IMG/VR virus record: IMGVR_UViG_3300017774_005745
Coordinates: 132,808-196,807 of that record
Reading direction: 5' to 3' (one strand)
Source of the DNA: a virus
Length of the DNA stretch: 64,000 nucleotides
The notes below the pieces were generated by a model. It worked only from the letters and a program-made list of their open reading frames with translations, did not search any database and was not told where the DNA came from. Below are positions 42,873 to 56,336 of the stretch, in pieces; the stretch's first letter is position 1, and each line of letters starts with the position of its first letter. The position numbers and the translations under genes were made by a program.

Positions 42873-42946
42873 CGACCTCACCAGGAATCGAACCTGGGAC
42901 CCCCGACTTAGAAGGTCGGTGCTCTATCCATCTGAGCTATGAGGTC
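42873..42946 (-). tRNA. tRNA-Arg(TCT)
   Basis: Cloverleaf, loop CTTCTAA. Confidence 0.93.
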
Positions 42947-42953
42947 ATGCTAT

Positions 42954-43026
42954 TGTGCCCACCAGGATTCGAACCTGGAACCTACCCGTTATGAGCGGGC
43001 AGCTCTAACCGTTGAGCTATGAGCAC
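42954..43026 (-). tRNA. tRNA(CAT), elongator Met or Ile2
   Basis: Canonical cloverleaf, loop CTCATAA. Confidence 0.9.
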
Positions 43027-43498: not shown

Positions 43499-43629
43499 GT
43501 ACTTCCTTTCGTTGTTGATACAGAAAATGGAGCCGGTTTCGAACCCGGCAGTAACACCACTTTGACTAGAGTGATGTCGACTGTGCGCGGCAACCGTGTC
43601 ATTGAGCGCCAACTATCCGCACATCCAAG

Positions 43630-44000
43630 TGGAGGTGGGGGGAATCGAACCCCCGTCCGAAAGCCTTCTGTTCTTCGATACTACGTGCGTAGCCAGTATC
43701 CCCTGGCTGGTACAACGGTTTGTCCCTCTTCTATTTACCCCGAACAAGGCTGAGGACGTCCTACGTTCAGCAGTACCCTGTGCTGTGCCTTCCAGTTACC
43801 GGGTCATCTTACTGGAAGACATCCCTGCTGCTATTACGCAGCGGCGCGGAATTCCGGTGCCGAAGCACCGATCATCCACGCCGGGAGCTCAACGTTGTCG
43901 TTGGCTTTTATTGGTTTTCCCACGAAGAATTAACGAGCTTCGTAAGCAGCTCGGCACGCATCTCGAACGTCTATGCCTCCGTCGAAGCCAGGTCACCCCC
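43630..44000 (-). ncRNA. ssrA: tmRNA (tag ANDNVELPAWMIGASAPEFRAAA)
   Basis: 5' GGGGGTGA..TTCGAC; 3' GGTTCGATTCCCCCCACCTCCA; G3:U pair; AATAAAA-GCC resume context. Confidence 0.93.
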
Positions 44001-45489: not shown

Positions 45490-45642
45490 CTGTCTTTGAG
45501 ACCGACGCTAAGACTTCCTTTTAGCTCTTAATCCCCACGCCTTATCATTGGGCCACTCGACCACATGGAGGTCGAGACCGGAATCAAACCAGTATCTTGG
45601 GGTGCATACGGAAGTAACTTAATTCGGAGTCTCGTTACACAG
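45490..45642 (-). ncRNA. Circularly permuted tRNA-like RNA #2 (YrlA-like)
   Basis: T-arm ACTGG-TTTGATT-CCGGT, acceptor hairpin CTCGACC-TCCATGT-GGTCGAG, D-arm, long closing stem. Confidence 0.75.
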
Positions 45643-45673
45643 AAAGCTTGAGCTTGGAGCTACACCCATGAGT

Positions 45674-45774
45674 GTCCAATACACGCTGCTTTGCCTCACC
45701 AGTTGGGCTACCTGGCCGTAATAGGCCAGGGGAAGAGTCGAACTTCCATCTTTAGCAGAGTGTGGTTAACGGAC
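45674..45774 (-). ncRNA. Circularly permuted tRNA-like RNA #1 (YrlA-like)
   Basis: T-arm GGAAG-TTCGACT-CTTCC, acceptor hairpin CCTGGCC-TATTAC-GGCCAGG, D-arm with GG, closing stem GTCCG/TGGAC. Confidence 0.75.
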
Positions 45775-45776
45775 GT

Positions 45777-45812
45777 AAGCTTGAGACTTTGAACTTCAGC
45801 TTGAGCTTGTGC
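45777..45812 (-). repeat. AAGCTC/AAGCTG/AAGTTC/AAGCTT hexamer array (again at ~45643-45655)
   Basis: AAGCTCAAGCTGAAGTTCAAAGTCTCAAGCTT. Confidence 0.6.
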
Positions 45813-45840: not shown

Positions 45841-46578
45841 TCAGGGAGCAAAGATGAGTTCGACGATGACACCAGTCGCAGCATCGACAACATCTGCCTG
45901 GTTTGCCTCTTCACGAGCAACCTTGACCGCTCGTTGCATCTTCTCGACTCTCTCCTGGAGCTGCTTCTTCCTGTCTGCTGGAATGGCTCCGGAGAAGTGA
46001 ATGGTCTTCCACGTCCCGACTGTGATGTCTTCGGTGACCTTGACCGTCTGTGCTGGGTGTTCCTTGGTCGGTGGAACGATGACTTTGTAGTCTTCCACCT
46101 TCTTGGTCTTGATGGTCTCCACAGGCTCAGAGCGGTACAACCCCTGTCCTTCATCGAACTGCCACACGGTATCCTGAGGAAGCGTGGGGAGCTTGCCGAT
46201 GAACTCTGCGATGGAGACGAGCTTCTTCTCCAGCCACAGCAGGTGGGTCGCAGGGATGTCCTTTGCGAGAATCTGTCCATCGACAGTGATGTCTGCCACT
46301 GCCGAGCAGTTCGTGGAGTCCTTGACCGCCGTGATGTTGAAGATTTCCTTCATCAGCGCGACAGTCGTGGAGATAGCTTCCTCCACCTTGACCGTGACTT
46401 TCTTCGACTCAGACGGGAGCTTCTCTCCGCTGTCGTCCTTCGGCTGGTACGTGCGAGAGAGACCGATGACCAGCTCGGGCTTCTGCACGTTGCGGTAGAG
46501 TTCCGTGAACTGGTCCTCCCGCTTTCCCTTGACCGTCTTCTCGATGGCCAGGATTTGGTTCAGCTTCTTGCCAGCCAT
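45841..46578 (-). CDS. Conserved protein, DUF7873-like (KLNQI.A.EK...SRTYQP.D..GE.LP.E)
   Basis: Family recalled from bacterial genomes; not searched. Confidence 0.75.
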   Translation of the reverse strand: MAGKKLNQILAIEKTVKGKREDQFTELYRNVQKPELVIGLSRTYQPKDDSGEKLPSESKKVTVKVEEAISTTVALMKEIFNITAVKDSTNCSAVADITVDGQILAKDIPATHLLWLEKKLVSIAEFIGKLPTLPQDTVWQFDEGQGLYRSEPVETIKTKKVEDYKVIVPPTKEHPAQTVKVTEDITVGTWKTIHFSGAIPADRKKQLQERVEKMQRAVKVAREEANQADVVDAATGVIVELIFAP

Positions 46579-47141: not shown

Positions 47142-48137
47142 TCAATCTCGGATCTTCAGAATCCGTTGAACGAGAATCGCTTTACCGCCAGGAATCTTTG
47201 AAGCACCGATGATGTCGAGACCTTTGCCTGCGTACTTTCGAAGGTCTTCGATGGACTGCGACATGAGTTGTTCGAAGCTCATGTTGTCGAACTTCTTCCA
47301 ACCCTTCTTGGATTTTCTTGGAGGAGCACTTCCTGCGTCTGCTTCTTGGCTCTTCTCAGAGGAAGGTGAAGTGTCTTGCTCCTCGACTGCGTCTTTCATT
47401 GAGTCTCGTTCATCTTCGAACGACGTAGAAGGCAAAAGCTCATCGTTGTGGTTGCCAAGTACCTTATACCGACACACACGCATCTTTTGTTGACCTGCGT
47501 CATACGGAACGCAGACAACGTCAGCGGGGTCTACTTCACATACGACCATCCGTCCGCCGCTGTGGAAGCTCTTCGCATACGCAAGAGCTCCGACATGGAA
47601 CCCTTCGTGGCATGCGGTGTTGGGGTCGTCGGAGACTTTGTTACGGTCCATCTCCAGGATCGCACCGGGTTTGTTCACGAAGGTCCCAGAGTGGACATCT
47701 TTGTAGTCCGAGCGCACAGCCTTGTACGTAAGGAGCCTTCCCTCCTTCGTAAATGGAATCCCTCCGTGCTTCAAGAACTCCCAGAGCTGGTTTACGGAAC
47801 GGTATGAAGGATTCTTCTTCAGACGCTTCCAGAAGTTCAGCAGTGAGGAAGGGTCCTCGTTGTTCGTTGCCATCTCCTGAATCCGCTGGTTGAGGGATTC
47901 TGGGATTTTCTCATCACCGAGGTAGAACTCGTTGTTCTTGACCTTGAAGTCTCCCTTTGCCCAAGACTCGATCGACTTCTTGAGGGAGAGGTGGTTAGGA
48001 ATGTCATCCCACTTCTCTTGGATAACTGCATTACGCAGTTGCAGGAAGTTGGCTGCTCCCTTCTTCACTGTGTGCGACTTTCCCTCCCAGATGACTGTTA
48101 TCGATTCCTTCGTCAGTGTGAACGGAGGAGCTTCCAT
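47142..48137 (-). CDS. rIIB: rIIB-like protein
   Basis: NPSYRSVNQLW.FL...T..G..L.YK.VR, D...AC..G.HVG, VV.VP.D...KMRVC.Y. Confidence 0.88.
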   Translation of the reverse strand: MEAPPFTLTKESITVIWEGKSHTVKKGAANFLQLRNAVIQEKWDDIPNHLSLKKSIESWAKGDFKVKNNEFYLGDEKIPESLNQRIQEMATNNEDPSSLLNFWKRLKKNPSYRSVNQLWEFLKHGGIPFTKEGRLLTYKAVRSDYKDVHSGTFVNKPGAILEMDRNKVSDDPNTACHEGFHVGALAYAKSFHSGGRMVVCEVDPADVVCVPYDAGQQKMRVCRYKVLGNHNDELLPSTSFEDERDSMKDAVEEQDTSPSSEKSQEADAGSAPPRKSKKGWKKFDNMSFEQLMSQSIEDLRKYAGKGLDIIGASKIPGGKAILVQRILKIRD

Positions 48138-50259
48138 TTTTGATCTCTTTTCTGAACTTCTCATCGATGAGATTGAAGTAATCGAGCCACTGGTCGGAGA
48201 ATCCGCCAGTCCAAAGCGAGTGAAGATTGCTCATCATTGCGAGGAGCGGATACTTGACTCTTATTGCGCGCCGTCTTGGGAGTACTTTCGACTCCCACAG
48301 CTTACTCGCTGTAACGTAGTCATAGAGACTCTTGATTCTATACTCATCTACGTCTTTTCTGACTTTCGGCGCAGCTACGGAGTCCTCCAGATACTTTCTG
48401 AGGATGTTGTCTTGGTTTAGTCTATTGATGAACTTCATCATGACCGACTTCTCGTTAGTGCCGAATCCTCTACCTATGCCAGCGTGATGCTCCCAATCCG
48501 CCTCATCAAGATGCGCAAGAGTCCTTGGGTCTTTGATGTCTGCTCGAACTGCCTTCTTCACCCACTCTTCCATGGGAATGCCGAGACCTGGAGTTGAGTA
48601 AGTTACGGGATTCTTCTCCGTCGTCTTGAACCCGTAGATAGTAGGCACCTCTCTACCAGTGATGATTGAGAGAGTTTGTAGAATGTTCAGCTCTTCTCTG
48701 AAGTGGCCGTACTGCCAGACTTCGAACTCCTTGATGATGACGAAAGGACTCGACGGCTTCGGGGGAACTTCAGCGGCTTCCCAGTTTCGAGACTTCGGGT
48801 GTCTCCACCCGCCTCTACCTACGAGTGTGAACGTCTTGAGACGGTGTTTCTCATTTACGACGGGACCGTTTGACCTCCTCGTAGAAACAGGTTTTTGCCA
48901 TGTCAAACTAGACGTCGTTGAGATGGGAATCCCGGTGAGACCGCTCTTCGCGAGCAGGTCGTCGAGTTCTTTTCGAACGTCACCCCACGGGGTCTTTGAG
49001 TCTTTTCGTACGACGATGTAGTCCCATCGGTTGAGGGTAAACCCCTTCAAAGAGCGATGGTCATCTCTCAGCAGTAGTCTGTTCTCTTGAGAGAGGTCTA
49101 CGTCTCGCTCCGCTATCTTCATGCGCGTGATTTCGAACGTCAGGGGAGTATCCTTGAGCGGGACTCTCTGCATGACGTACTGCTTCCAACCTACAGGGAC
49201 TGGGAGATTCATCTCTGCCAGGATTCTACACCGTACCAAACGCTCCCATGCAGACGTAGACGTCTTAGAGGCTGCGTCGATGGTCTTGGTGACGAATTCC
49301 TCGATGAGCTTCTCAAACTTCTCTATCAGCGCCTTCTTGGTGCTCTCTCCGTACTTCAGGCTCTCACGGGAGGCACTTATCTGAAGTTCTCCAATGTTGA
49401 AGTTGAGAACTCCTCCCATGCTCGACAGGAAGCTCGGGATTCCAACGGACGACCCAAAGCCACCGAGCTGCGCGAGGTCTATTGGATAGCCGATACATCC
49501 CATTCTCGCAATCCAAGTACCACGAGTGAACACCCACGCGCCCTTGTCCAGTTGAAGTTCCTTACCTGTGTAATACCCTCCATTGGAGCATGAGACGATG
49601 GCCCCATGTTCAGACTCTGACAGGGTGTCCATCTTCAGAGCTGGAATGCTGATGTTGATCTTCGGCTGCGGAAAGAAAAAAGCAAAGAGTCGCTTGGCCT
49701 TCTCGTAGAACTCTCCGATGTCCGAAGACTTCACTGCGATTTCAATCGTTACTCCAGTGCTCTCTCCGCACGGCTCTTCATGAAGAAGATTGATGACTCC
49801 CTTATCGGACTCATCGAGAACCGCTACATAGGTTCTCTTTACACCACCGTGAGACGAGATGACGGTGAAACTGTCCGAGTAGGCGAAGCCGCTCTTGGAG
49901 CCGATTCCCATCATTCCTACTGCAGAGTCACTGTCTCTCTTCGTGCTTGCTCCATACTGGGCAAAGACCTTGAAGATTCCTTCGGAGGAAAGGCCAGGCC
50001 CTTTGTCTTTGATTTGAAGGGTGGGCTTTGCGTGGGTGGGTAGTACGACCTCAATTGGCTCGTTCCCTCGACCTGCTTCCTTTTGGGCATCCCATGCGTT
50101 CGCACTGTACTCGCGAAGCACCGCCATGATTTTGTCCGAGTACAGTGTGTCTCGGAGAATCGTCATGATGTGCGCGGAGTCGTCGATAGAGATACCAAAC
50201 GACCCAGACGTCTTGACACCGCTCGTTGTGAGTGAGCGGTCCTTCGTATTTGGGATCAA
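48031..50259 (-). CDS. rIIA: rIIA-like protein with GHKL/HSP90-type ATPase domain
   Basis: LY.DKI.AVLREY.ANA.DA, I.D.G.GL, YG.STK, G..GIGSK; adjacent to rIIB. Confidence 0.9.
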   Translation of the reverse strand: MIPNTKDRSLTTSGVKTSGSFGISIDDSAHIMTILRDTLYSDKIMAVLREYSANAWDAQKEAGRGNEPIEVVLPTHAKPTLQIKDKGPGLSSEGIFKVFAQYGASTKRDSDSAVGMMGIGSKSGFAYSDSFTVISSHGGVKRTYVAVLDESDKGVINLLHEEPCGESTGVTIEIAVKSSDIGEFYEKAKRLFAFFFPQPKINISIPALKMDTLSESEHGAIVSCSNGGYYTGKELQLDKGAWVFTRGTWIARMGCIGYPIDLAQLGGFGSSVGIPSFLSSMGGVLNFNIGELQISASRESLKYGESTKKALIEKFEKLIEEFVTKTIDAASKTSTSAWERLVRCRILAEMNLPVPVGWKQYVMQRVPLKDTPLTFEITRMKIAERDVDLSQENRLLLRDDHRSLKGFTLNRWDYIVVRKDSKTPWGDVRKELDDLLAKSGLTGIPISTTSSLTWQKPVSTRRSNGPVVNEKHRLKTFTLVGRGGWRHPKSRNWEAAEVPPKPSSPFVIIKEFEVWQYGHFREELNILQTLSIITGREVPTIYGFKTTEKNPVTYSTPGLGIPMEEWVKKAVRADIKDPRTLAHLDEADWEHHAGIGRGFGTNEKSVMMKFINRLNQDNILRKYLEDSVAAPKVRKDVDEYRIKSLYDYVTASKLWESKVLPRRRAIRVKYPLLAMMSNLHSLWTGGFSDQWLDYFNLIDEKFRKEIKNGSSSVHTDEGIDNSHLGGKVAHSEEGSSQLPATA

Positions 50260-50290
50260 ACGGTTTCCTATTTCAAGAAGTAAATAAGAT

Positions 50291-50433
50291 GAAGTTCCGA
50301 GTGTACAACGCGTTCGTTTTATGAGGCTGCTGCTCTACCACTGAGCTACGTAGGTCAGGGACCTACGGCAGGATTCGAACCTGCGACCCGCAGCGTGACG
50401 TTTTGCGTGTGTGCGCTGTACTGCCGGAACTTC
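50291..50433 (-). ncRNA. Circularly permuted tRNA-like RNA #3, retains CTCATAA loop
   Basis: T-arm GCAGG-TTCGAAT-CCTGC, hairpin CGTAGGT-CCCTG-ACCTACG, D-arm GCTC-AGTGGTA-GAGC, closing stem GAAGTTCCG/CGGAACTTC. Confidence 0.85.
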
Positions 50434-50436
50434 AAG

Positions 50437-50859: not shown

Positions 50860-51276
50860 TTATACTTCAGACAGTCCAAGAAGCACAATCGGATTCTCTG
50901 TCGGGTTGAACTGCCACCGCCGCGTCTTGTACCCGGACTTGGCGGAAAGAGCAGCAATCATTCTAGCAGTTCCTGCTGGATTCCAACTATGGACGACGAC
51001 CATCTTGGGAAGTTGGTGAGCTTCCAACCACTCGGCGATGTAGAGAGCTACCTCGTACCCAGTCTCTTCGAGCACCGCCACGTTCCCAGTATCAGCGGAG
51101 CTGTAGTGGGCCTCCATGAGGTCGTGGTCCAAGAACACAACATCCCAAGGACCTTCGTCACGGAGTGCTGCTCTGGCCTGGTTCGCCGTGTAGACGTGCT
51201 TCACGTCATACTTGAAGAGATGGAACTTGAAGGATTCGTGCCGTCTGAGGTCGTCGTCAAGGACTAGGATCTTCAC
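50860..51276 (-). CDS. Cyclic-phosphate-processing receiver-like domain protein
   Basis: ILVLDDD..R, VFLDHDL, GYEVA, VVHSWNP.G..RM. Confidence 0.75.
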   Translation of the reverse strand: MKILVLDDDLRRHESFKFHLFKYDVKHVYTANQARAALRDEGPWDVVFLDHDLMEAHYSSADTGNVAVLEETGYEVALYIAEWLEAHQLPKMVVVHSWNPAGTARMIAALSAKSGYKTRRWQFNPTENPIVLLGLSEV

Positions 51277-51423
51277 TGGTGTCTCTCTTCTGAAAGAAGT
51301 CGCAATCTCCCTCACACATGACGTAAGGACCCATCCCTCCACCGGCCAGACCGTACCCGAAGATGGTGTTAGAACCACACTTAGGGCACACCGTGGGGAG
51401 TTCCACAACTGGTGCTTCGTCAC

Positions 51424-52141: not shown

Positions 52142-53017
52142 CTACGCCTGCTTGGAACGCGTGCTGCCGTTCGGCGAGTTCTGCATCATCTGAAGCTCCG
52201 AGAGCGTCTTCTGCGAACCAGACGACTCCAGGGCCTTCTCGGCGATGCTCTTCACGTTCTTCTCGGACTCGGCGATGCGAGCTTCCGCAGCCAGCAACTG
52301 CGCAGCGAGCTTGTTGTTGGTCTCGGTGAGCTGGTTGATCTTCGAGATGTTGATGGCGTTCTCCGTTGCGCGGTCCTTCTCCAGGAGCTGCAGCCTGTGC
52401 TCGTAGTCCCTCTTGATCGCACCAGCCGCCGCGAAGGCCGCGTCCTTCTTCTCCGCTTCGAGCTTCTCGGGGAAGGTGGTGACCTGTGCCTTGAGGTTCA
52501 GGAATTCGGTCTCCTTGGCCGACAGCTCCTCGCTCCGCTTCTTCCACTCACGTTCGAGGTCATCCTGGCGGTTCCGCTCTTCCAGCTTCTTGATGCGGAT
52601 CTGCTCCGCCAGCTCATCCTGCTGCTGACGAGTCTGCTGCTGGAAGTTGTACTCGCGCTCTTCCTGGTTGCGCGCGAGCTCCTGGTCATGAGCCGTCTTC
52701 CGCTCTTCCAACCGAGCATCCTCCTGGCTCAGGAGGGCCTGCAGTTCTTCGAGGTCACGAAGGACGGACTCCTTCTCGAAGAGCTGCTCCAACTCCTGCT
52801 TCTTGAGCTCCACGGCCTGGCTGACCGTTTGGAACTCGTTGACGTTCTGCGCCACCTGCTGGCTGATGTCATTCAACGTCCTGCCCACCGCAAGACCGAC
52901 TTCGGTCAGCTTCTTCACAGCGGTGTCCACCGTGAGGCTGGTGGCGCTCTTGACCGTCTGCTCTGCCTTCTCCTTGTTGAACGTTTCCGTCTTCGTCGGC
53001 GTCTTCTTCTTGGACAT
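52142..53017 (-). CDS. Long coiled-coil protein
   Basis: Heptad-rich E/K/Q/R sequence; strong RBS; GC-rich codons. Confidence 0.8.
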   Translation of the reverse strand: MSKKKTPTKTETFNKEKAEQTVKSATSLTVDTAVKKLTEVGLAVGRTLNDISQQVAQNVNEFQTVSQAVELKKQELEQLFEKESVLRDLEELQALLSQEDARLEERKTAHDQELARNQEEREYNFQQQTRQQQDELAEQIRIKKLEERNRQDDLEREWKKRSEELSAKETEFLNLKAQVTTFPEKLEAEKKDAAFAAAGAIKRDYEHRLQLLEKDRATENAINISKINQLTETNNKLAAQLLAAEARIAESEKNVKSIAEKALESSGSQKTLSELQMMQNSPNGSTRSKQA

Positions 53018-53114
53018 TTGTACTTCCCCTCATCGGTTGGTTTGAAGGCGAACGGTATGTCCGCCAAAACCCTTATACCTTGAAGGGCTGACATCTTGGT
53101 TTTAAGCTAAAAGT

Positions 53115-53268
53115 TGATCCACCCGAGTGAGCAATCCGTAGGTCTCTTTCGAGACGGCTTAATAGGCCGGTGCCTTACCAGTTAGGCTACCTCCTCATAT
53201 GTGAGGAGGGTTGGATTCGAACCAACATAAGACGATTGCGTGTGAGGACTGTTCGGCCGGGTGAATCA
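53115..53268 (-). ncRNA. Circularly permuted tRNA-like RNA #4, retains an anticodon arm (ATT)
   Basis: T-arm GTTGG-TTCGAAT-CCAAC, hairpin CCTCCTC-ACATAT-GAGGAGG, D-arm, CCGGC-CTATTAA-GCCGT, 12-bp closing stem. Confidence 0.85.
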
Positions 53269-53269
53269 G

Positions 53270-53342
53270 GGCGATGTACGGGAGTCGAACCCGTATAACG
53301 AGATCCACAATCTCGTGTCCTTGCCATTAGACGAACAACGCC
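53270..53342 (-). tRNA. tRNA-His(GTG)
   Basis: G-1:C73, loop TTGTGGA. Confidence 0.9.
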
Positions 53343-53478
53343 AAATACCCATTGAGACTGCCGTTTTCATCAGGTCGTGTTTTGAGCAACTACGGCAACT
53401 CCATCACCAGGTCTCTCTCCTGCTGAAACAGATGTCTTTCGACTCTGCACCCACCTGCCTTACTAAAGTCTCAATGGA

Positions 53479-53549
53479 TGCGCCCGGAAAGAATCGAACT
53501 TTCGTTTATCGCTTATCAGGCGATCGTACTACCATTGTACTACGGGCGC
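53479..53549 (-). tRNA. tRNA-Ile(GAT)
   Basis: Cloverleaf, loop CTGATAA. Confidence 0.9.
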
Positions 53550-53554
53550 TTACT

Positions 53555-53764
53555 TCACTTCTGCAGCCACTGCTGAAAGATAGGTCTGAGATCGTACGTT
53601 CTCTCTGACGCTTCTTTACTCTTTCGCCACTCCTGGATGTGCGGTCTACAGAGACGGTACCCAAACTCAGCAAGGCGAGTACAGCCATTCTTCCCACACG
53701 GTTCCACTCCCTCGCTGAGTTTTACTGGCTCTGTACTCTTTTGATTACTCAATATTGGTACCAT
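53555..53764 (-). CDS. Small Cys-containing protein
   Basis: ATG at 53764. Confidence 0.4.
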   Translation of the reverse strand: MVPILSNQKSTEPVKLSEGVEPCGKNGCTRLAEFGYRLCRPHIQEWRKSKEASERTYDLRPIFQQWLQK

Positions 53765-53937
53765 TGAAATTCGCAGAAGCCAAATCCAAGCACTCCGATC
53801 GGACCGTCGTACCACATGTCGTGTCTTCCGAAGTGCCACTCTTTTCTTGGCAGAGTCTGGAACCAGACTTGAAACGTTTCTCCAACTAGTCCGACTCCAT
53901 GGTATCCATACTTATTAGAACTGAACTCTATTTTCAT
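53749..53937 (-). CDS. Small aromatic-rich protein (WYDGP)
   Basis: ORF track. Confidence 0.5.
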   Translation of the reverse strand: MKIEFSSNKYGYHGVGLVGETFQVWFQTLPRKEWHFGRHDMWYDGPIGVLGFGFCEFQWYQY

Positions 53938-55931: not shown

Positions 55932-56306
55932 TCATTGTGCGGTCTTTGAGAGAACGGAGTCTATGACGTTGATGAGGTCTTGTCGTGAAATCGGCTTTGA
56001 GAGAACCGCAATTGCTCCTGCCTCTGCTGCCTTCTGCTGCTGACCTCCATACGTTCCTGTGAACACAATGACAGGAATATGAGAGGTTGCCGGGTCCGCC
56101 TTCAGTACCTTCATCATCTCAATCCCATCCAGCACGGGCATGTTCAAGTCGGCAATGATGACGTCAGGTTTAAACTGTCGCGCCATGCCAAGCCCTTCCA
56201 GACCGTTCTTTGCTTCGAAGATACTGTGGCTTAGTCGAATCAAGAAGAGCTTCAAGAGAAGCTGAACAGACTCGTCATCTTCGACAATCAGGATTTTCTT
56301 GGACAT
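55932..56306 (-). CDS. Stand-alone CheY-like response regulator
   Basis: ILIVEDD, IIADLNMP.LDG, T-G, KP: all canonical receiver residues present. Confidence 0.92.
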   Translation of the reverse strand: MSKKILIVEDDESVQLLLKLFLIRLSHSIFEAKNGLEGLGMARQFKPDVIIADLNMPVLDGIEMMKVLKADPATSHIPVIVFTGTYGGQQQKAAEAGAIAVLSKPISRQDLINVIDSVLSKTAQ

Positions 56307-56336
56307 ATGCACACTATACCACGATACGACAACAAG

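What the first reader, a model, noticed from the sequence alone, without database searches (positions are those of the whole stretch)
53115..53268. Permuted tRNA-like RNA with an intact anticodon arm (ATT), broken in the variable loop
Seen: T-arm, acceptor hairpin (CCTCCTC/GAGGAGG), D-arm with GG, then a full anticodon arm CCGGC-CTATTAA-GCCGT and a GAAA hairpin, enclosed by a 12-bp stem. CGTCT occurs both after the anticodon arm and before the T-arm, so a join there would give a normal cloverleaf with a 5-nt variable loop. An A34 ATT (Asn) anticodon is not a standard bacterial tRNA. The element begins directly after tRNA-His. Inference: the permutation point differs from element #3, so these four RNAs may have arisen independently from different tRNAs.
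Basis: partly seen in the sequence, partly recalled or inferred. Interest (0 to 1): 0.8.

Follow-up and report, generated by a model that had tools for sequence, protein, structure and literature searches.

The report
Phage Y-RNA-like tRNA mimic, anticodon arm intact
This 154-nt phage RNA is a Y-RNA-type tRNA look-alike of a so far undescribed build that keeps a complete anticodon arm; the same build is common in myxobacteria and large phages next to Ro60 or Ro60-like genes, yet this phage carries the RNA without the protein.

Summary
Window 53115-53268 (minus strand), starting on the base after tRNA-His, folds (z = -5.4) into a 12-bp closing stem, an internal loop with CCGAA, a second helix, then T arm, closed 7-bp acceptor hairpin, D arm and a local anticodon hairpin (loop CUAUUAA).

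It is not a decoding tRNA. It is a relative of YrlA, the bacterial Y RNAs that mimic tRNA and bind Ro60. Published YrlA lacks an anticodon loop; here the RNA ends leave from the variable-loop position.

I found 14 such RNAs in large phages and 78 in bacterial assemblies, almost all Myxococcota. The anticodon stem covaries at 5 of 5 pairs. The loop keeps Y32, U33 and R37, but positions 34-36 are free (31 different triplets).

In 29 of 55 loci a canonical Ro60 gene or a divergent Ro60-like gene lies within 4 kb on the same strand. The window's complete phage has neither gene. Its tmRNA tag points to a myxobacterial host.

Best reading: a phage-supplied Y RNA that loads onto the host's Ro60-like protein. 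Binding itself is inferred. The GAAA hairpin and the CGUCU repeat are not conserved.

The parts
53115..53268 (-). Whole element (154 nt): Y-RNA-like tRNA mimic with a local anticodon arm ('type B')
   Evidence: Fold z = -5.4. Sub-threshold Rfam YrlA hit over T arm, acceptor and D arm (28.3 bits). Models R1 and R2 find homologues.
53257..53268 (-). Closing stem, 5' strand (UGAUUCACCCGG); pairs with 53115-53126
   Evidence: In the 78-row set all 12 pairs show compensatory changes; cells paired are 83-85% in both sets.
53252..53256 (-). Internal loop, 5' side: CCGAA. With G at 53257 it reads GCCGAA, close to the GNCGAA / CGAA Ro60 motif
   Evidence: Read from the sequence. The motif is defined in PMC4201824 and PMC12135203. 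The spacing to the next G is 2 nt instead of 0-1.
53246..53251 (-). Helix 2, 5' strand (CAGUCC); pairs with 53132-53137 (GGAUUG)
   Evidence: Compensatory changes against L001 and element #3. Pairs with compensatory changes: 5 of 6 (14 rows) and 6 of 6 (78 rows); 93-94% of cells paired.
53227..53245 (-). Single-stranded linker with the family motif YACACGCAA (UCACACGCAA at 53236-53245); its last bases (CUUAU) take the place of the variable loop, and U at 53227 can form the Levitt pair with A15
   Evidence: The motif is present in nearly all members. The Levitt-pair logic is from PMC4201824.
53210..53226 (-). T arm: GUUGG-UUCGAAU-CCAAC
   Evidence: 98-100% of cells paired.
53190..53209 (-). Closed acceptor hairpin: CCUCCUC-ACAUAU-GAGGAGG (7 bp; A at 53202 is in the discriminator position)
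   Evidence: The stem is 7 bp throughout the family, with 94-95% of cells paired.
53172..53189 (-). U8-A9 linker and D arm: GCCU-AACUGGUA-AGGC
53154..53170 (-). Anticodon arm: CCGGC-CUAUUAA-GCCGU. Triplet AUU at 53161-53163
   Evidence: Compensatory changes at 5 of 5 pairs; 97% and 92% of cells paired. The loop frame Y32 U33 NNN R37 A38 is conserved and the triplet is free.
53144..53153 (-). Extra hairpin with GAAA loop (CUC-GAAA-GAG; it can extend to 5 bp by taking two bases from the anticodon stem)
   Evidence: Present in the MFE fold. Absent from the closest homologue L001. Weakly supported in the family: 77% of cells paired and many gaps.
53132..53137 (-). Helix 2, 3' strand (GGAUUG)
53115..53131 (-). 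Internal loop 3' side (CUCAC) and closing stem 3' strand (UCGGGUGGAUCA); the family motif CACUCGG spans both
   Evidence: It resembles AcUuG at the same place in the Rfam YrlA consensus.
53269..53341 (-). tRNA-His(GUG) directly upstream; its 3' processing would create the element's 5' end
   Evidence: Same arrangement in L001. No promoter or terminator consensus between them.
50289..50435 (-). Sister element #3: same stem module, canonical YrlA topology with the anticodon stem formed in trans
   Evidence: Rfam YrlA 42.1 bits. R1 50.7 bits. Homologue L109 covaries in the trans stem.
45499..45781 (-). Sister elements #1 and #2: two tandem YrlA-like RNAs
   Evidence: Full-length sub-threshold Rfam YrlA alignments, 26.4 and 34.7 bits.
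50860..51423 (-). Neighbouring gene with a cRec (cyclic-phosphate-processing receiver) domain, a predicted RNA-end-repair enzyme
   Evidence: Pfam PF20274, E = 2.9e-13. Role as proposed in PMC7824862.

Best explanation
The element is a phage-encoded non-coding RNA of the Y RNA / YrlA kind: a tRNA mimic fused to a Ro60-binding-type stem. It belongs to a distinct structural subclass that I call type B.

In type B the whole tRNA body is present: T arm, D arm, 7-bp acceptor stem closed by a loop, and a complete anticodon stem-loop. The RNA's 5' and 3' ends leave from the variable-loop position and pair to form the protein-binding module. That module consists of a closing stem, an internal loop with CGAA on the 5' side and CACUCGG on the 3' side, and a second helix followed by YACACGCAA.

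The element is most likely co-transcribed with tRNA-Ile and tRNA-His and released when tRNA-His is processed. This step is inferred.

The phage has no Ro60. I infer that the RNA loads onto the Ro60-like protein of its probable myxobacterial host, whose own type-B RNAs carry nearly the same stem module. The RNA would present a generic, non-decoding tRNA shape to a tRNA-binding effector, and so redirect or titrate the host's Ro60 RNA-surveillance or repair machinery during infection.

Shown here: the structure, its conservation, the family, the linkage to Ro60 and Ro60-like genes elsewhere, and the absence of such a gene in this phage.

Inferred: transcription and processing, binding to the host protein, and the effect on infection.
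For: 1. Kind of RNA. The only Rfam families that match are tRNA and YrlA; four sub-threshold YrlA hits lie in the phage's tRNA region. Order of parts is as in YrlA: T arm, closed acceptor, D arm. GCCGAA sits at the junction of closing stem and internal loop, where PMC4201824 places GNCGAA and PMC12135203 places CGAA.

2. Structure. Covariation in 14 phage sequences: 91.5% of cells paired against 61.5% in shuffles. Every helix except the GAAA hairpin is supported, and the anticodon arm has compensatory changes at 5 of 5 pairs. The 78 sequences from bacterial assemblies give the same result.

3. Not decoding. The anticodon triplet is free, with 31 different triplets, while Y32, U33 and R37 are kept in 91-97% of 7-nt loops. 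Between the window and L001, tRNA-His and tRNA-Ile are 97-99% identical. The element's tRNA-like part is 66% identical and its stem module 88-91%. The phage already has tRNA-Asn(GUU) and tRNA-Lys(UUU and CUU).

4. Partner. Of 55 loci with type-B RNAs, 5 have a canonical Ro60 gene (TROVE plus vWA_Ro60) within 0.6 kb. Seventeen have a gene of a roughly 600-aa family with a C-terminal vWA domain within 1.5 kb, and 7 more within 4 kb. All of these genes are on the RNA's strand. The best full-length structural matches of that family are Ro60 proteins: 1yvp, 9kop, 9nep, 2nvo.

5. This phage lacks both proteins, although its record is complete with terminal repeats.

6. Host. The bacterial hits are almost all Myxococcota. 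The phage tmRNA tag starts ANDNVEL, like the tag ANDNVELALAA of Archangium and Pyxidicoccus. Both of those genomes carry type-B RNAs (L305, L311).
Against: - No expression data exist, and no promoter or terminator was found by the simple scan.
- Binding to any protein is untested.
- The Rfam YrlA score is far below the gathering score (28.3 against 69 bits).
- The window's motif is GCCGAACAG, so the spacing differs from GNCGAAN0-1G, and the CGAA motif is not kept in all type-B members.
- Published YrlA RNAs were defined by lying within 4 kb of a Ro60 gene, which is not the case here.
- The host is inferred only from the tmRNA tag and from where the family occurs. The phage's G+C (about 53%) is lower than is usual for myxobacteria (from my own knowledge).
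- The Ro60-like assignment of the vWA family rests on a model of moderate confidence (pLDDT 72, TM 0.4-0.48).
- Some 'bacterial' loci, such as L306 with 27 tRNAs in 8 kb, look like phage contigs binned into MAGs.
Confidence: 0.68

Rival explanations
1. Protein-independent decoy. The RNA acts without Ro60 as a bait or competitive inhibitor for host enzymes that recognise the tRNA body and a generic anticodon loop, such as anticodon nucleases used in abortive-infection defence or tRNA-modifying enzymes. It would protect the phage's and host's real tRNAs.
For: The complete anticodon arm keeps the U-turn frame (Y32 U33 ... R37) under selection while the triplet is free. This suits shape recognition. 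The element lies in a 28-tRNA array next to a cRec-domain gene predicted to process cyclic-phosphate RNA ends (PMC7824862). The window's closest relatives carry Lys-type loops: CUCUUAA in L001 and CUUUUAA in L141. tRNA-Lys is the classical target of the PrrC anticodon nuclease (from my own knowledge). The phage has no Ro60.
Against: The best-conserved part of the RNA is the Ro60-type stem module, which a simple decoy would not need. Elsewhere the family is tightly linked to Ro60 or Ro60-like genes. Known anticodon nucleases read specific anticodons and modifications, whereas the triplets here are very diverse. No RNA ligase (RtcB, Rnl2) was found in the phage.
Confidence: 0.13
2. Two-piece tRNA. 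RNase P cuts in the acceptor loop 5' of G+1, the new 3' end is trimmed and receives CCA, as shown for Mycobacterium smegmatis YrlA. The result is a nicked but complete tRNA with a very long open 'variable arm'. It could be recognised at the CCA end, or even charged.
For: The acceptor stem is exactly 7 bp across the family. PMC4201824 names this as the determinant that makes M. smegmatis YrlA an RNase P substrate that then gains CCA. Several family members encode N-CCA directly after the acceptor 3' strand, for example L135:7183, L249:2500, L249:2309 and L194:1602. All nine rejoined sequences pass ARAGORN as tRNAs.
Against: The window's own loop reads A-CAUAU, with no CCA, and the phage has no CCA-adding enzyme. 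The CCA count is inflated by tandem true tRNAs among the weaker hits, and encoded CCA may be a relic of an origin from tandem tRNA genes. Some loops lack U33. Charging is pure speculation.
Confidence: 0.1
3. True permuted tRNA gene. The closing stem brings the ends together, they are cut and ligated in the variable loop, and the acceptor loop is opened. This would give a functional tRNA with anticodon AUU.
For: Joining in the variable loop gives a perfect cloverleaf. Permuted tRNA genes matured through a circular intermediate are known in the red alga Cyanidioschyzon merolae (from my own knowledge).
Against: The would-be discarded stem module is the most conserved part and carries family-wide motifs. 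The anticodon changes even between close relatives: AUU, CUU, UUU. No bulge-helix-bulge motif is evident, and bacteria lack the splicing endonuclease (from my own knowledge). No RNA ligase was found in the phage. The linker lengths at the supposed junction vary widely. A34 is unusual, and the phage already encodes tRNA-Asn(GUU).
Confidence: 0.03
4. Non-functional relic of a tandem tRNA duplication in the phage's tRNA array.
For: The order T arm, acceptor 3' strand, spacer, acceptor 5' strand, D arm, anticodon arm is what the junction of two tandem tRNA copies gives. It is also the proposed origin of YrlA (preprint 10.1101/312249, citing Sim and Wolin 2018).
Against: There are compensatory changes in all helices, conserved flanking motifs, 92 members in divergent genomes and linkage to Ro60-like genes. 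This is not compatible with neutral decay.
Confidence: 0.03

Closest known systems
YrlA RNAs (Rfam RF02553; Chen et al. 2014, PMC4201824; crystal structure 6CU1, preprint 10.1101/312249)
   Same: Permuted tRNA mimic with T arm, closed acceptor-like hairpin and D arm in that order. U8-A9-type linker and possible Levitt pair. Long 5'/3' stem with an internal loop that carries a CGAA-type motif. In other genomes the family is encoded beside Ro60 on the same strand. Found in phages as well as bacteria.
   Different: [quoted passage not shown] Here the anticodon arm is a local 5-bp hairpin with a 7-nt tRNA-type loop, and the Ro60-type module is attached at the variable-loop position. The acceptor stem is 7 bp (6 in the Rfam consensus). 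The family has its own motifs, YACACGCAA and CACUCGG. Rfam scores are 28-40 bits against a gathering score of 69. This phage has no Ro60 gene.
Deinococcus radiodurans Yrn1 (Y RNA)
   Same: Binds Ro60 (Rsr). Can be drawn with a T arm and a possible 5-bp 'anticodon arm' (PMC4201824).
   Different: Yrn1 has the natural, unpermuted order, with the Ro60 stem in place of the acceptor stem, a 6-nt loop, no clear D arm and no variable region. The element here is permuted and has all four arms.
Thermus phage phiLo Yrl1/Yrl2 with phage Ro60 (PMC12135203)
   Same: Phage-encoded Y-RNA-like RNAs with a 5'/3' stem and a CGAA-bearing internal loop. Proposed to co-opt host PNPase.
   Different: phiLo encodes its own Ro60 next to the RNAs. 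The terms 'tRNA-like', 'anticodon' and 'YrlA' do not occur in that paper's text.
Permuted and split tRNA genes (Cyanidioschyzon merolae, Nanoarchaeum) - from my own knowledge
   Same: The 3' half lies before the 5' half, and the termini are held by a helix.
   Different: Those are matured into decoding tRNAs by the archaeal/eukaryal splicing endonuclease and a ligase. Their junction helix is a discarded bulge-helix-bulge, and their anticodons are conserved. Here the helix is the conserved part and the anticodon is free.
tmRNA and viral tRNA-like structures (TYMV TLS)
   Same: tRNA mimicry in a larger RNA.
   Different: Those have a free CCA end and are aminoacylated. tmRNA lacks an anticodon arm, which SmpB replaces. 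Here the acceptor is closed and the anticodon arm is present.

Membership tests
YrlA / bacterial Y RNA | tRNA-like core: T arm, closed acceptor-like stem-loop, D arm in this order, with conserved T- and D-loop bases | tested here: met
   Rfam YrlA alignment over model positions 30-81; fold; covariation.
YrlA / bacterial Y RNA | 5'/3' stem with an internal loop that carries the Ro60 motif GNCGAAN0-1G (CGAA) | tested here: inconclusive
   GCCGAA is at the right place, but 2 nt rather than 0-1 nt precede the next G. L001 has an exact GCCGAAG. Many type-B members have CCG-NN-GAA instead.
YrlA / bacterial Y RNA | Anticodon-stem equivalent formed by the 5' and 3' strands; no anticodon loop | tested here: not met
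   Local 5-bp hairpin with a 7-nt loop, conserved by covariation. Sister element #3 does meet this feature.
YrlA / bacterial Y RNA | Encoded within about 4 kb of a Ro60 (TROVE) gene on the same strand | tested here: not met
   No TROVE, vWA or Ro60-like gene in the complete 196.8-kb phage. Met for the family elsewhere: 29 of 55 loci.
YrlA / bacterial Y RNA | Score at or above the Rfam gathering threshold (69 bits) | tested here: not met
   28.3 bits for the window; 39-40 bits for bacterial type-B members.
YrlA / bacterial Y RNA | Bound by Ro60 in vivo; tethers an effector such as PNPase | not testable with these tools
   Needs immunoprecipitation or a gel-shift assay.
Functional (decoding) tRNA, permuted gene | Anticodon and identity elements conserved among orthologues; sequence conserved like other tRNAs | tested here: not met
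   AUU, CUU and UUU in close relatives; 31 triplets overall. 66% identity against 97-99% for real tRNAs.
Functional (decoding) tRNA, permuted gene | Processing signal at the junction (bulge-helix-bulge) and a ligase | tested here: not met
   No such motif was seen in the sequence. No RtcB or Rnl2 in the phage. Host enzymes were not examined.
Ro60 (for the neighbouring ~600-aa vWA protein family of other loci) | N-terminal helical-repeat ring (TROVE) plus C-terminal vWA domain | tested here: inconclusive
   Pfam finds only VWA_2. There is no BLAST similarity to a canonical Ro60. The top ten fold matches are Ro60 chains over 546-600 alignment columns, but TM is only 0.3-0.48 and pLDDT 72.

The most novel reading that the evidence does not exclude
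Type-B Y RNAs may be the missing Y RNAs of Myxococcota and partner a previously unrecognised, highly divergent Ro60-like protein family. Large phages of these bacteria would then carry 'orphan' copies that plug into the host protein. Because these RNAs keep a 7-bp acceptor stem (with encoded CCA in some members) and a full anticodon arm with a tRNA-type loop, they may also be opened by RNase P and CCA-tailed into two-piece, complete tRNA bodies. Anticodon-loop-reading or CCA-end-reading factors could then engage them. That would be a direct link between Ro60 RNPs and the tRNA damage, repair and defence machinery.
Probability: 0.2. Interest if true: 0.8.

Novelty: new variant of a known kind. 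Interest (0 to 1): 0.62.

Why it matters
Y RNAs and Ro60 are conserved from bacteria to humans, but what the tRNA-like head of bacterial Y RNAs binds is still unknown.

- **Constraint on the unknown effector.** A large natural subclass keeps the whole tRNA body, including an anticodon loop whose shape is selected while its triplet is not. The effector should therefore read the full L-shape and a generic anticodon loop.
- **Origin of Y RNAs.** The subclass looks like an intermediate predicted by the proposal that Y RNAs arose from dimeric tRNA transcripts, in which the second tRNA's anticodon arm is still intact.
- **A divergent Ro60-like family.** The linkage to a protein family that Pfam's TROVE model misses suggests that Ro60 systems are more widespread than TROVE-based surveys show. 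Chen et al. (2014) found few YrlA RNAs in delta-proteobacteria.
- **RNA-only hijacking.** A complete phage with four Y-RNA-like genes and no Ro60 offers a simple test of whether a virus can take over a host RNP with RNA alone.

Tried and rejected
- **Searches against cultured phages.** Megablast and blastn of the region found only tRNA-Ile matches. tblastn with a 1236-aa phage protein found nothing. The phage has no cultured relative in that collection.
- **Broad DNA patterns.** Narrowing the gap to 3-8 nt gave a complete list.
- **MAFFT alignments.** They misplaced the anticodon arm. I therefore built a single-sequence covariance model and realigned with it.
- **Five cultured Ro60-encoding phages** (Bacillus phage G, CcrColossus, BRock, RHph_Y65, Satis). 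They gave only weak hits to the type-B model, 39.8 bits or less. The two best of those, in Satis and BRock, I read as the canonical topology with the anticodon stem in trans. No type B was found there.
- **Conserved protein neighbours of the phage copies.** None is shared by the window's group. PADLOC found no defence-system match for the neighbours, and Pfam found nothing for the genes next to the Ro60-like gene in L311 and L292.
- **RNA-repair enzymes in the phage.** RtcB, Rnl2 and the CCA-adding enzyme are absent.
- **Similarity to the phage's own tRNAs.** The rejoined sequence is at most 66% identical to any of the 28 tRNAs, so no donor tRNA can be named.
- **The CGUCU repeat.** It is not conserved. 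A small excess of shared words between the two linkers comes from a GCAA motif on both strands.
- **Literature gaps.** The supplement of Chen et al. 2014 and the 2020 Annual Review are not held. I could not check whether any myxobacterial YrlA listed there is of this type.
- **The RF02553 hit at 42921-42982.** It is an artefact of two adjacent tRNAs.
Full report
**1. What is there**

The window is the last 64 kb of a complete 196.8-kb IMG/VR phage record with terminal repeats. All 28 tRNA genes and a tmRNA gene lie on the minus strand.

The finding, 53115-53268 on the minus strand, starts on the base after the discriminator of tRNA-His (53269). As RNA it folds at -62.5 kcal/mol, against -40.5 +/- 4.1 for dinucleotide shuffles (z = -5.4; none of 200 shuffles folds as well).

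With element position i = 53269 - window coordinate, the parts are:
- closing stem: 1-12 with 143-154
- internal loop: CCGAA on the 5' side, CUCAC on the 3' side
- helix 2: CAGUCC with GGAUUG
- a 19-nt linker: UCACACGCAAUCGUCUUAU
- T arm: GUUGG-UUCGAAU-CCAAC
- acceptor hairpin of 7 bp: CCUCCUC-ACAUAU-GAGGAGG
- UA, then the D arm: GCCU-AACUGGUA-AGGC
- A, then the anticodon arm: CCGGC-CUAUUAA-GCCGU, with a C.U at the outermost position
- a small hairpin with a GAAA loop

Joining the end of the anticodon arm to the last five linker bases gives a sequence that ARAGORN calls tRNA-Asn(ATT) with a clean cloverleaf.

**2. What kind of RNA it is**

A permissive Rfam scan matches the T arm, acceptor and D arm stretch to YrlA (RF02553, 'Y RNA-like') at 28.3 bits, below the gathering score of 69. 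Three more sub-threshold YrlA matches lie in the same tRNA region, at 50328-50392, 45659-45776 and 45511-45614. A fifth match, at 42921-42982, is an artefact of two adjacent tRNAs.

YrlA RNAs are bacterial and phage Y RNAs. Their effector domain mimics tRNA, and their 5'/3' stem carries a GNCGAA motif thought to bind Ro60 (PMC4201824). A recent study of Thermus phage phiLo uses the same 'CGAA in an internal loop' criterion (PMC12135203). The window element has GCCGAA exactly at the junction of closing stem and internal loop.

[quoted passage not shown] Element #3 of this window has that canonical topology. Its trans stem GCUGC/GCAGC changes to UCAGG/CCUGA in the close homologue L109. The element under study does not have it. 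Its anticodon arm is a local hairpin, and the ends leave from the variable-loop position.

**3. Homologues and covariation**

The 291-aa gene downstream led to one related phage contig, L001. It has a homologous element in the same place after tRNA-His. The stem module is almost the same and carries compensatory changes. The T, acceptor and anticodon stems are all different but still paired. The loop reads CUCUUAA, and there is no GAAA hairpin.

I built a covariance model from the window sequence (R1) and searched loci fetched by short conserved patterns. I then rebuilt the model from nine members (R2). This gave 14 clear members from large viral contigs of 105-529 kb.

On these 14, 91.5% of cells are paired, against 61.5% in shuffles and 30-47% with slid partners. 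The anticodon arm has compensatory changes at 5 of 5 pairs and 97% pairing. The closing stem, helix 2, and the T, acceptor (always 7 bp) and D arms are all supported. The GAAA hairpin is not: 77% pairing and many gaps. These alignments were fitted to the model, which favours it. The slid-partner control and the raw sequences show that the signal is real.

A scan of one genome per prokaryotic species with ACACGCAA-N3-8-GGTTCGANTCC gave 98 loci. R2 found 78 matches at E < 1e-6 in 43 of them. Almost all are Myxococcota: Kofleriaceae, Polyangiaceae, Archangiaceae, Myxococcaceae, Haliangiales and Nannocystaceae, including the isolate Pyxidicoccus caerfyrddinensis. The matches often form tandem arrays. 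They show the same architecture and the same covariation, with 92% pairing in the anticodon arm and compensatory changes at 5 of 5 pairs.

One of the 78 rows (L299) comes from a genome marked unpublished (G036). No claim here rests on it. Without it, the TROVE tally is 6 of 22.

Rfam's YrlA model scores these bacterial members at 39-40 bits, also below threshold.

**4. The anticodon loop**

Across the 92 members, 75 have a 7-nt loop. Within these:
- position 32 is a pyrimidine in 73
- position 33 is U in 68
- position 37 is a purine in 70
- position 38 is A or C in 74
- positions 34-36 have near-even base composition and show 31 different triplets

The loop is therefore kept in the shape of a tRNA anticodon loop, while the 'anticodon' itself carries no conserved information. 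AUU in the window is one of many triplets. The window's closest relatives have CUU and UUU.

Between the window and L001, tRNA-His and tRNA-Ile are 97-99% identical. The element's tRNA-like part is 66% identical and its stem module 88-91%. The phage already has tRNA-Asn(GUU) and both tRNA-Lys genes. The rejoined sequence is at most 66% identical to any of the phage's tRNAs.

All of this argues against a decoding tRNA and against maturation by joining the ends, which would discard the best-conserved part.

**5. The partner protein**

Pfam's TROVE model finds no gene in the window's phage, nor in most of the other viral records. It does find one close to the elements in the contigs of L038 and L037.

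Several other loci have a protein of about 600 aa with a C-terminal VWA_2 domain directly next to the RNAs on the same strand. The Pyxidicoccus protein is 42% identical (E = 7e-124) to the one on the L135 contig. It has no BLAST similarity to a canonical Ro60.

An AlphaFold model built from six members (pLDDT 72) has Ro60 chains as its ten best Foldseek matches in the PDB: Xenopus 1yvp, 2i91 and 1yvr, Thermus phage 9kop and 9l5y, and the Ro60 cryo-EM entries 9nep and 9nfa. Deinococcus Rsr 2nvo and human Ro60 9nen follow at ranks 14-15. Those ten alignments span 546-600 columns. Plain vWA domains align over only about 190-320 columns. TM-scores of 0.3-0.48 are moderate, so I call this family 'Ro60-like' and do not treat it as proven Ro60.

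A census of the 55 loci with type-B RNAs gives:
- a canonical Ro60 gene within 0.6 kb in 5 loci, one of them the unpublished genome
- the Ro60-like family within 1.5 kb in 17 loci, and within 4 kb in 7 more
- every one of these genes on the RNA's strand

This is the criterion by which YrlA RNAs were originally assigned to Ro60 (PMC4201824). Many of the remaining loci are cut close to the RNA, so their neighbours could not be seen.

**6. The window's phage has the RNA but not the protein**

TROVE, VWA_2, two phage Ro60 proteins, the Ro60-like profile and a distant member from L086 all find nothing in the complete genome. That includes unfiltered tblastn, hmmsearch and phmmer runs over all open frames. 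RtcB, Rnl2 and a CCA-adding enzyme are also absent.

Between elements #3 and #4 lies a gene with a cRec domain. It is predicted to process 2',3'-cyclic phosphate RNA ends and is linked to RNA repair in jumbo phages (PMC7824862).

**7. Likely host**

The phage tmRNA tag is ANDNVELPAWMIGASAPEFRAAA. The tmRNA tags of Archangium gephyra and Pyxidicoccus are ANDNVELALAA. Both genomes carry type-B RNAs: L305, and L311 beside the Ro60-like gene.

The core of the window's stem module differs from that of L305 at only a few positions, and these include a compensatory U-A to G-C change in helix 2. The core reads CCCGGCCGA-NN-AG-N-CC ... ACACGCAA on the 5' side and GG-N-UU-N-CUCACUCGGG on the 3' side.

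**8. How it most likely works**

Shown: the structure, its conservation, the family and its linkage to Ro60 or Ro60-like genes, and the lack of such a gene in this phage.

Inferred:
- The RNA is made as part of the tRNA transcript. No promoter or terminator consensus lies in 52900-53900.
- Its 5' end is set by 3' processing of tRNA-His.
- It then binds the host's Ro60-like protein through the stem module and offers a generic tRNA body to a tRNA-binding effector. By analogy with Ro60/Y RNA/PNPase complexes in Deinococcus, Salmonella and Thermus phage phiLo (PMC4201824, PMC12135203), the phage would re-aim or titrate host RNA surveillance or repair.

A variant that I cannot exclude starts from the 7-bp acceptor stem. 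That feature makes M. smegmatis YrlA a substrate of RNase P and of CCA addition (PMC4201824), and it is universal here. Several members also encode N-CCA right after the acceptor 3' strand (the count includes some true tandem tRNAs). Processing would give a two-piece, complete tRNA body.

A protein-independent decoy role against tRNA-targeting enzymes is the main rival.

**9. Novelty**

The kind of RNA (a Y RNA with tRNA mimicry, also found in phages) is known. The following are not described in the literature I could reach:
- the topology with an intact anticodon arm and a variable-loop break point
- its own sequence motifs
- its abundance in Myxococcota and their probable phages
- its link to a TROVE-negative Ro60-like family
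- its occurrence as an 'orphan' in a complete phage

I could not read the supplementary tables of Chen et al. 2014. They report few YrlA RNAs in delta-proteobacteria, so prior listing of some members cannot be excluded.

The topology fits the dimeric-tRNA origin model quoted in preprint 10.1101/312249, as a form that still keeps the second tRNA's anticodon arm.

I rate it a new variant of a known kind, of moderate to good interest.

Noticed in passing
L311:2394-4196(+), L292:1762-3558(+), L313:4213-6063(-), L309:3319-5145(+), L135:112-2238(+), L157:10772-12628(-): A conserved protein family of about 600-700 aa (helical N-terminal part plus C-terminal VWA_2). Pfam's TROVE model misses it. It lies directly beside type-B RNAs in Myxococcota and large viral contigs, and its model's best full-length PDB matches are Ro60 proteins. 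It may be a divergent Ro60 clade.
   Followed up: partly
L267:6237-6370(-) and L267:7405-7527(-): Inside the same kind of closing stem (with YACAUGCA / YACAAGCA and CACUCGG motifs), these two RNAs carry D arm, anticodon arm and T arm in the natural, unpermuted order. One 448-kb phage therefore seems to hold Y-RNA-like genes of different topologies.
   Followed up: no
L135:7183-7324, L249:2500-2649, L249:2309-2458, L194:1602-1740, L267:7754-7921: Several family members encode N-CCA immediately after the acceptor 3' strand, inside the 'closed' acceptor loop. This may be a relic of tandem tRNA genes or a sign that the loop is opened to a CCA end.
   Followed up: partly
window 43629-44000(-): The phage tmRNA has a long tag, ANDNVELPAWMIGASAPEFRAAA. 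Its first seven residues equal the start of the tag ANDNVELALAA of Archangium and Pyxidicoccus. This is a lead to a myxobacterial host.
   Followed up: partly
window 50860-51423(-), 48031-50259(-), 45841-46578(-), 55932-56312(-): Genes interspersed with the tRNA and Y-RNA-like genes: a cRec-domain protein (predicted cyclic-phosphate processing), a 742-aa HATPase_c_3 protein, a DUF7873 protein and a stand-alone response-regulator receiver.
   Followed up: no
L306 (contig JAEYYY010000345.1, 38 kb, binned in a 'Proteobacteria' MAG): Eight kilobases hold about 27 tRNA genes, a canonical Ro60 gene and four tandem type-B RNAs. It looks like a phage contig binned into a bacterial MAG, so part of the 'bacterial' census may be viral.
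   Followed up: no
L135:2482-5269(+) and the matching block in L157: Next to the Ro60-like gene lie a 365-aa protein of no known family, a weak JAB-like domain, an 86-aa protein and a ThiF/E1-like protein. This suggests a possible ubiquitin-like conjugation module linked to the Ro60-like RNP.
   Followed up: no
post-anticodon-arm linkers of family members (e.g. L249:2155-2297, L267:8154-8293, L258:6019-6190): A second (C)GCAA(Y) motif recurs on the 3' linker just before helix 2 and mirrors the ACGCAA of the 5' linker. The window's element lacks it and has the GAAA hairpin there instead.
   Followed up: partly
L086:245-1840(-): A 532-aa ORF 255 nt from the type-B RNA of this complete 105-kb phage is a very distant relative of the Ro60-like family (27.6 bits against its profile). 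Partner proteins may be too divergent to detect in other 'orphan' phages.
   Followed up: partly
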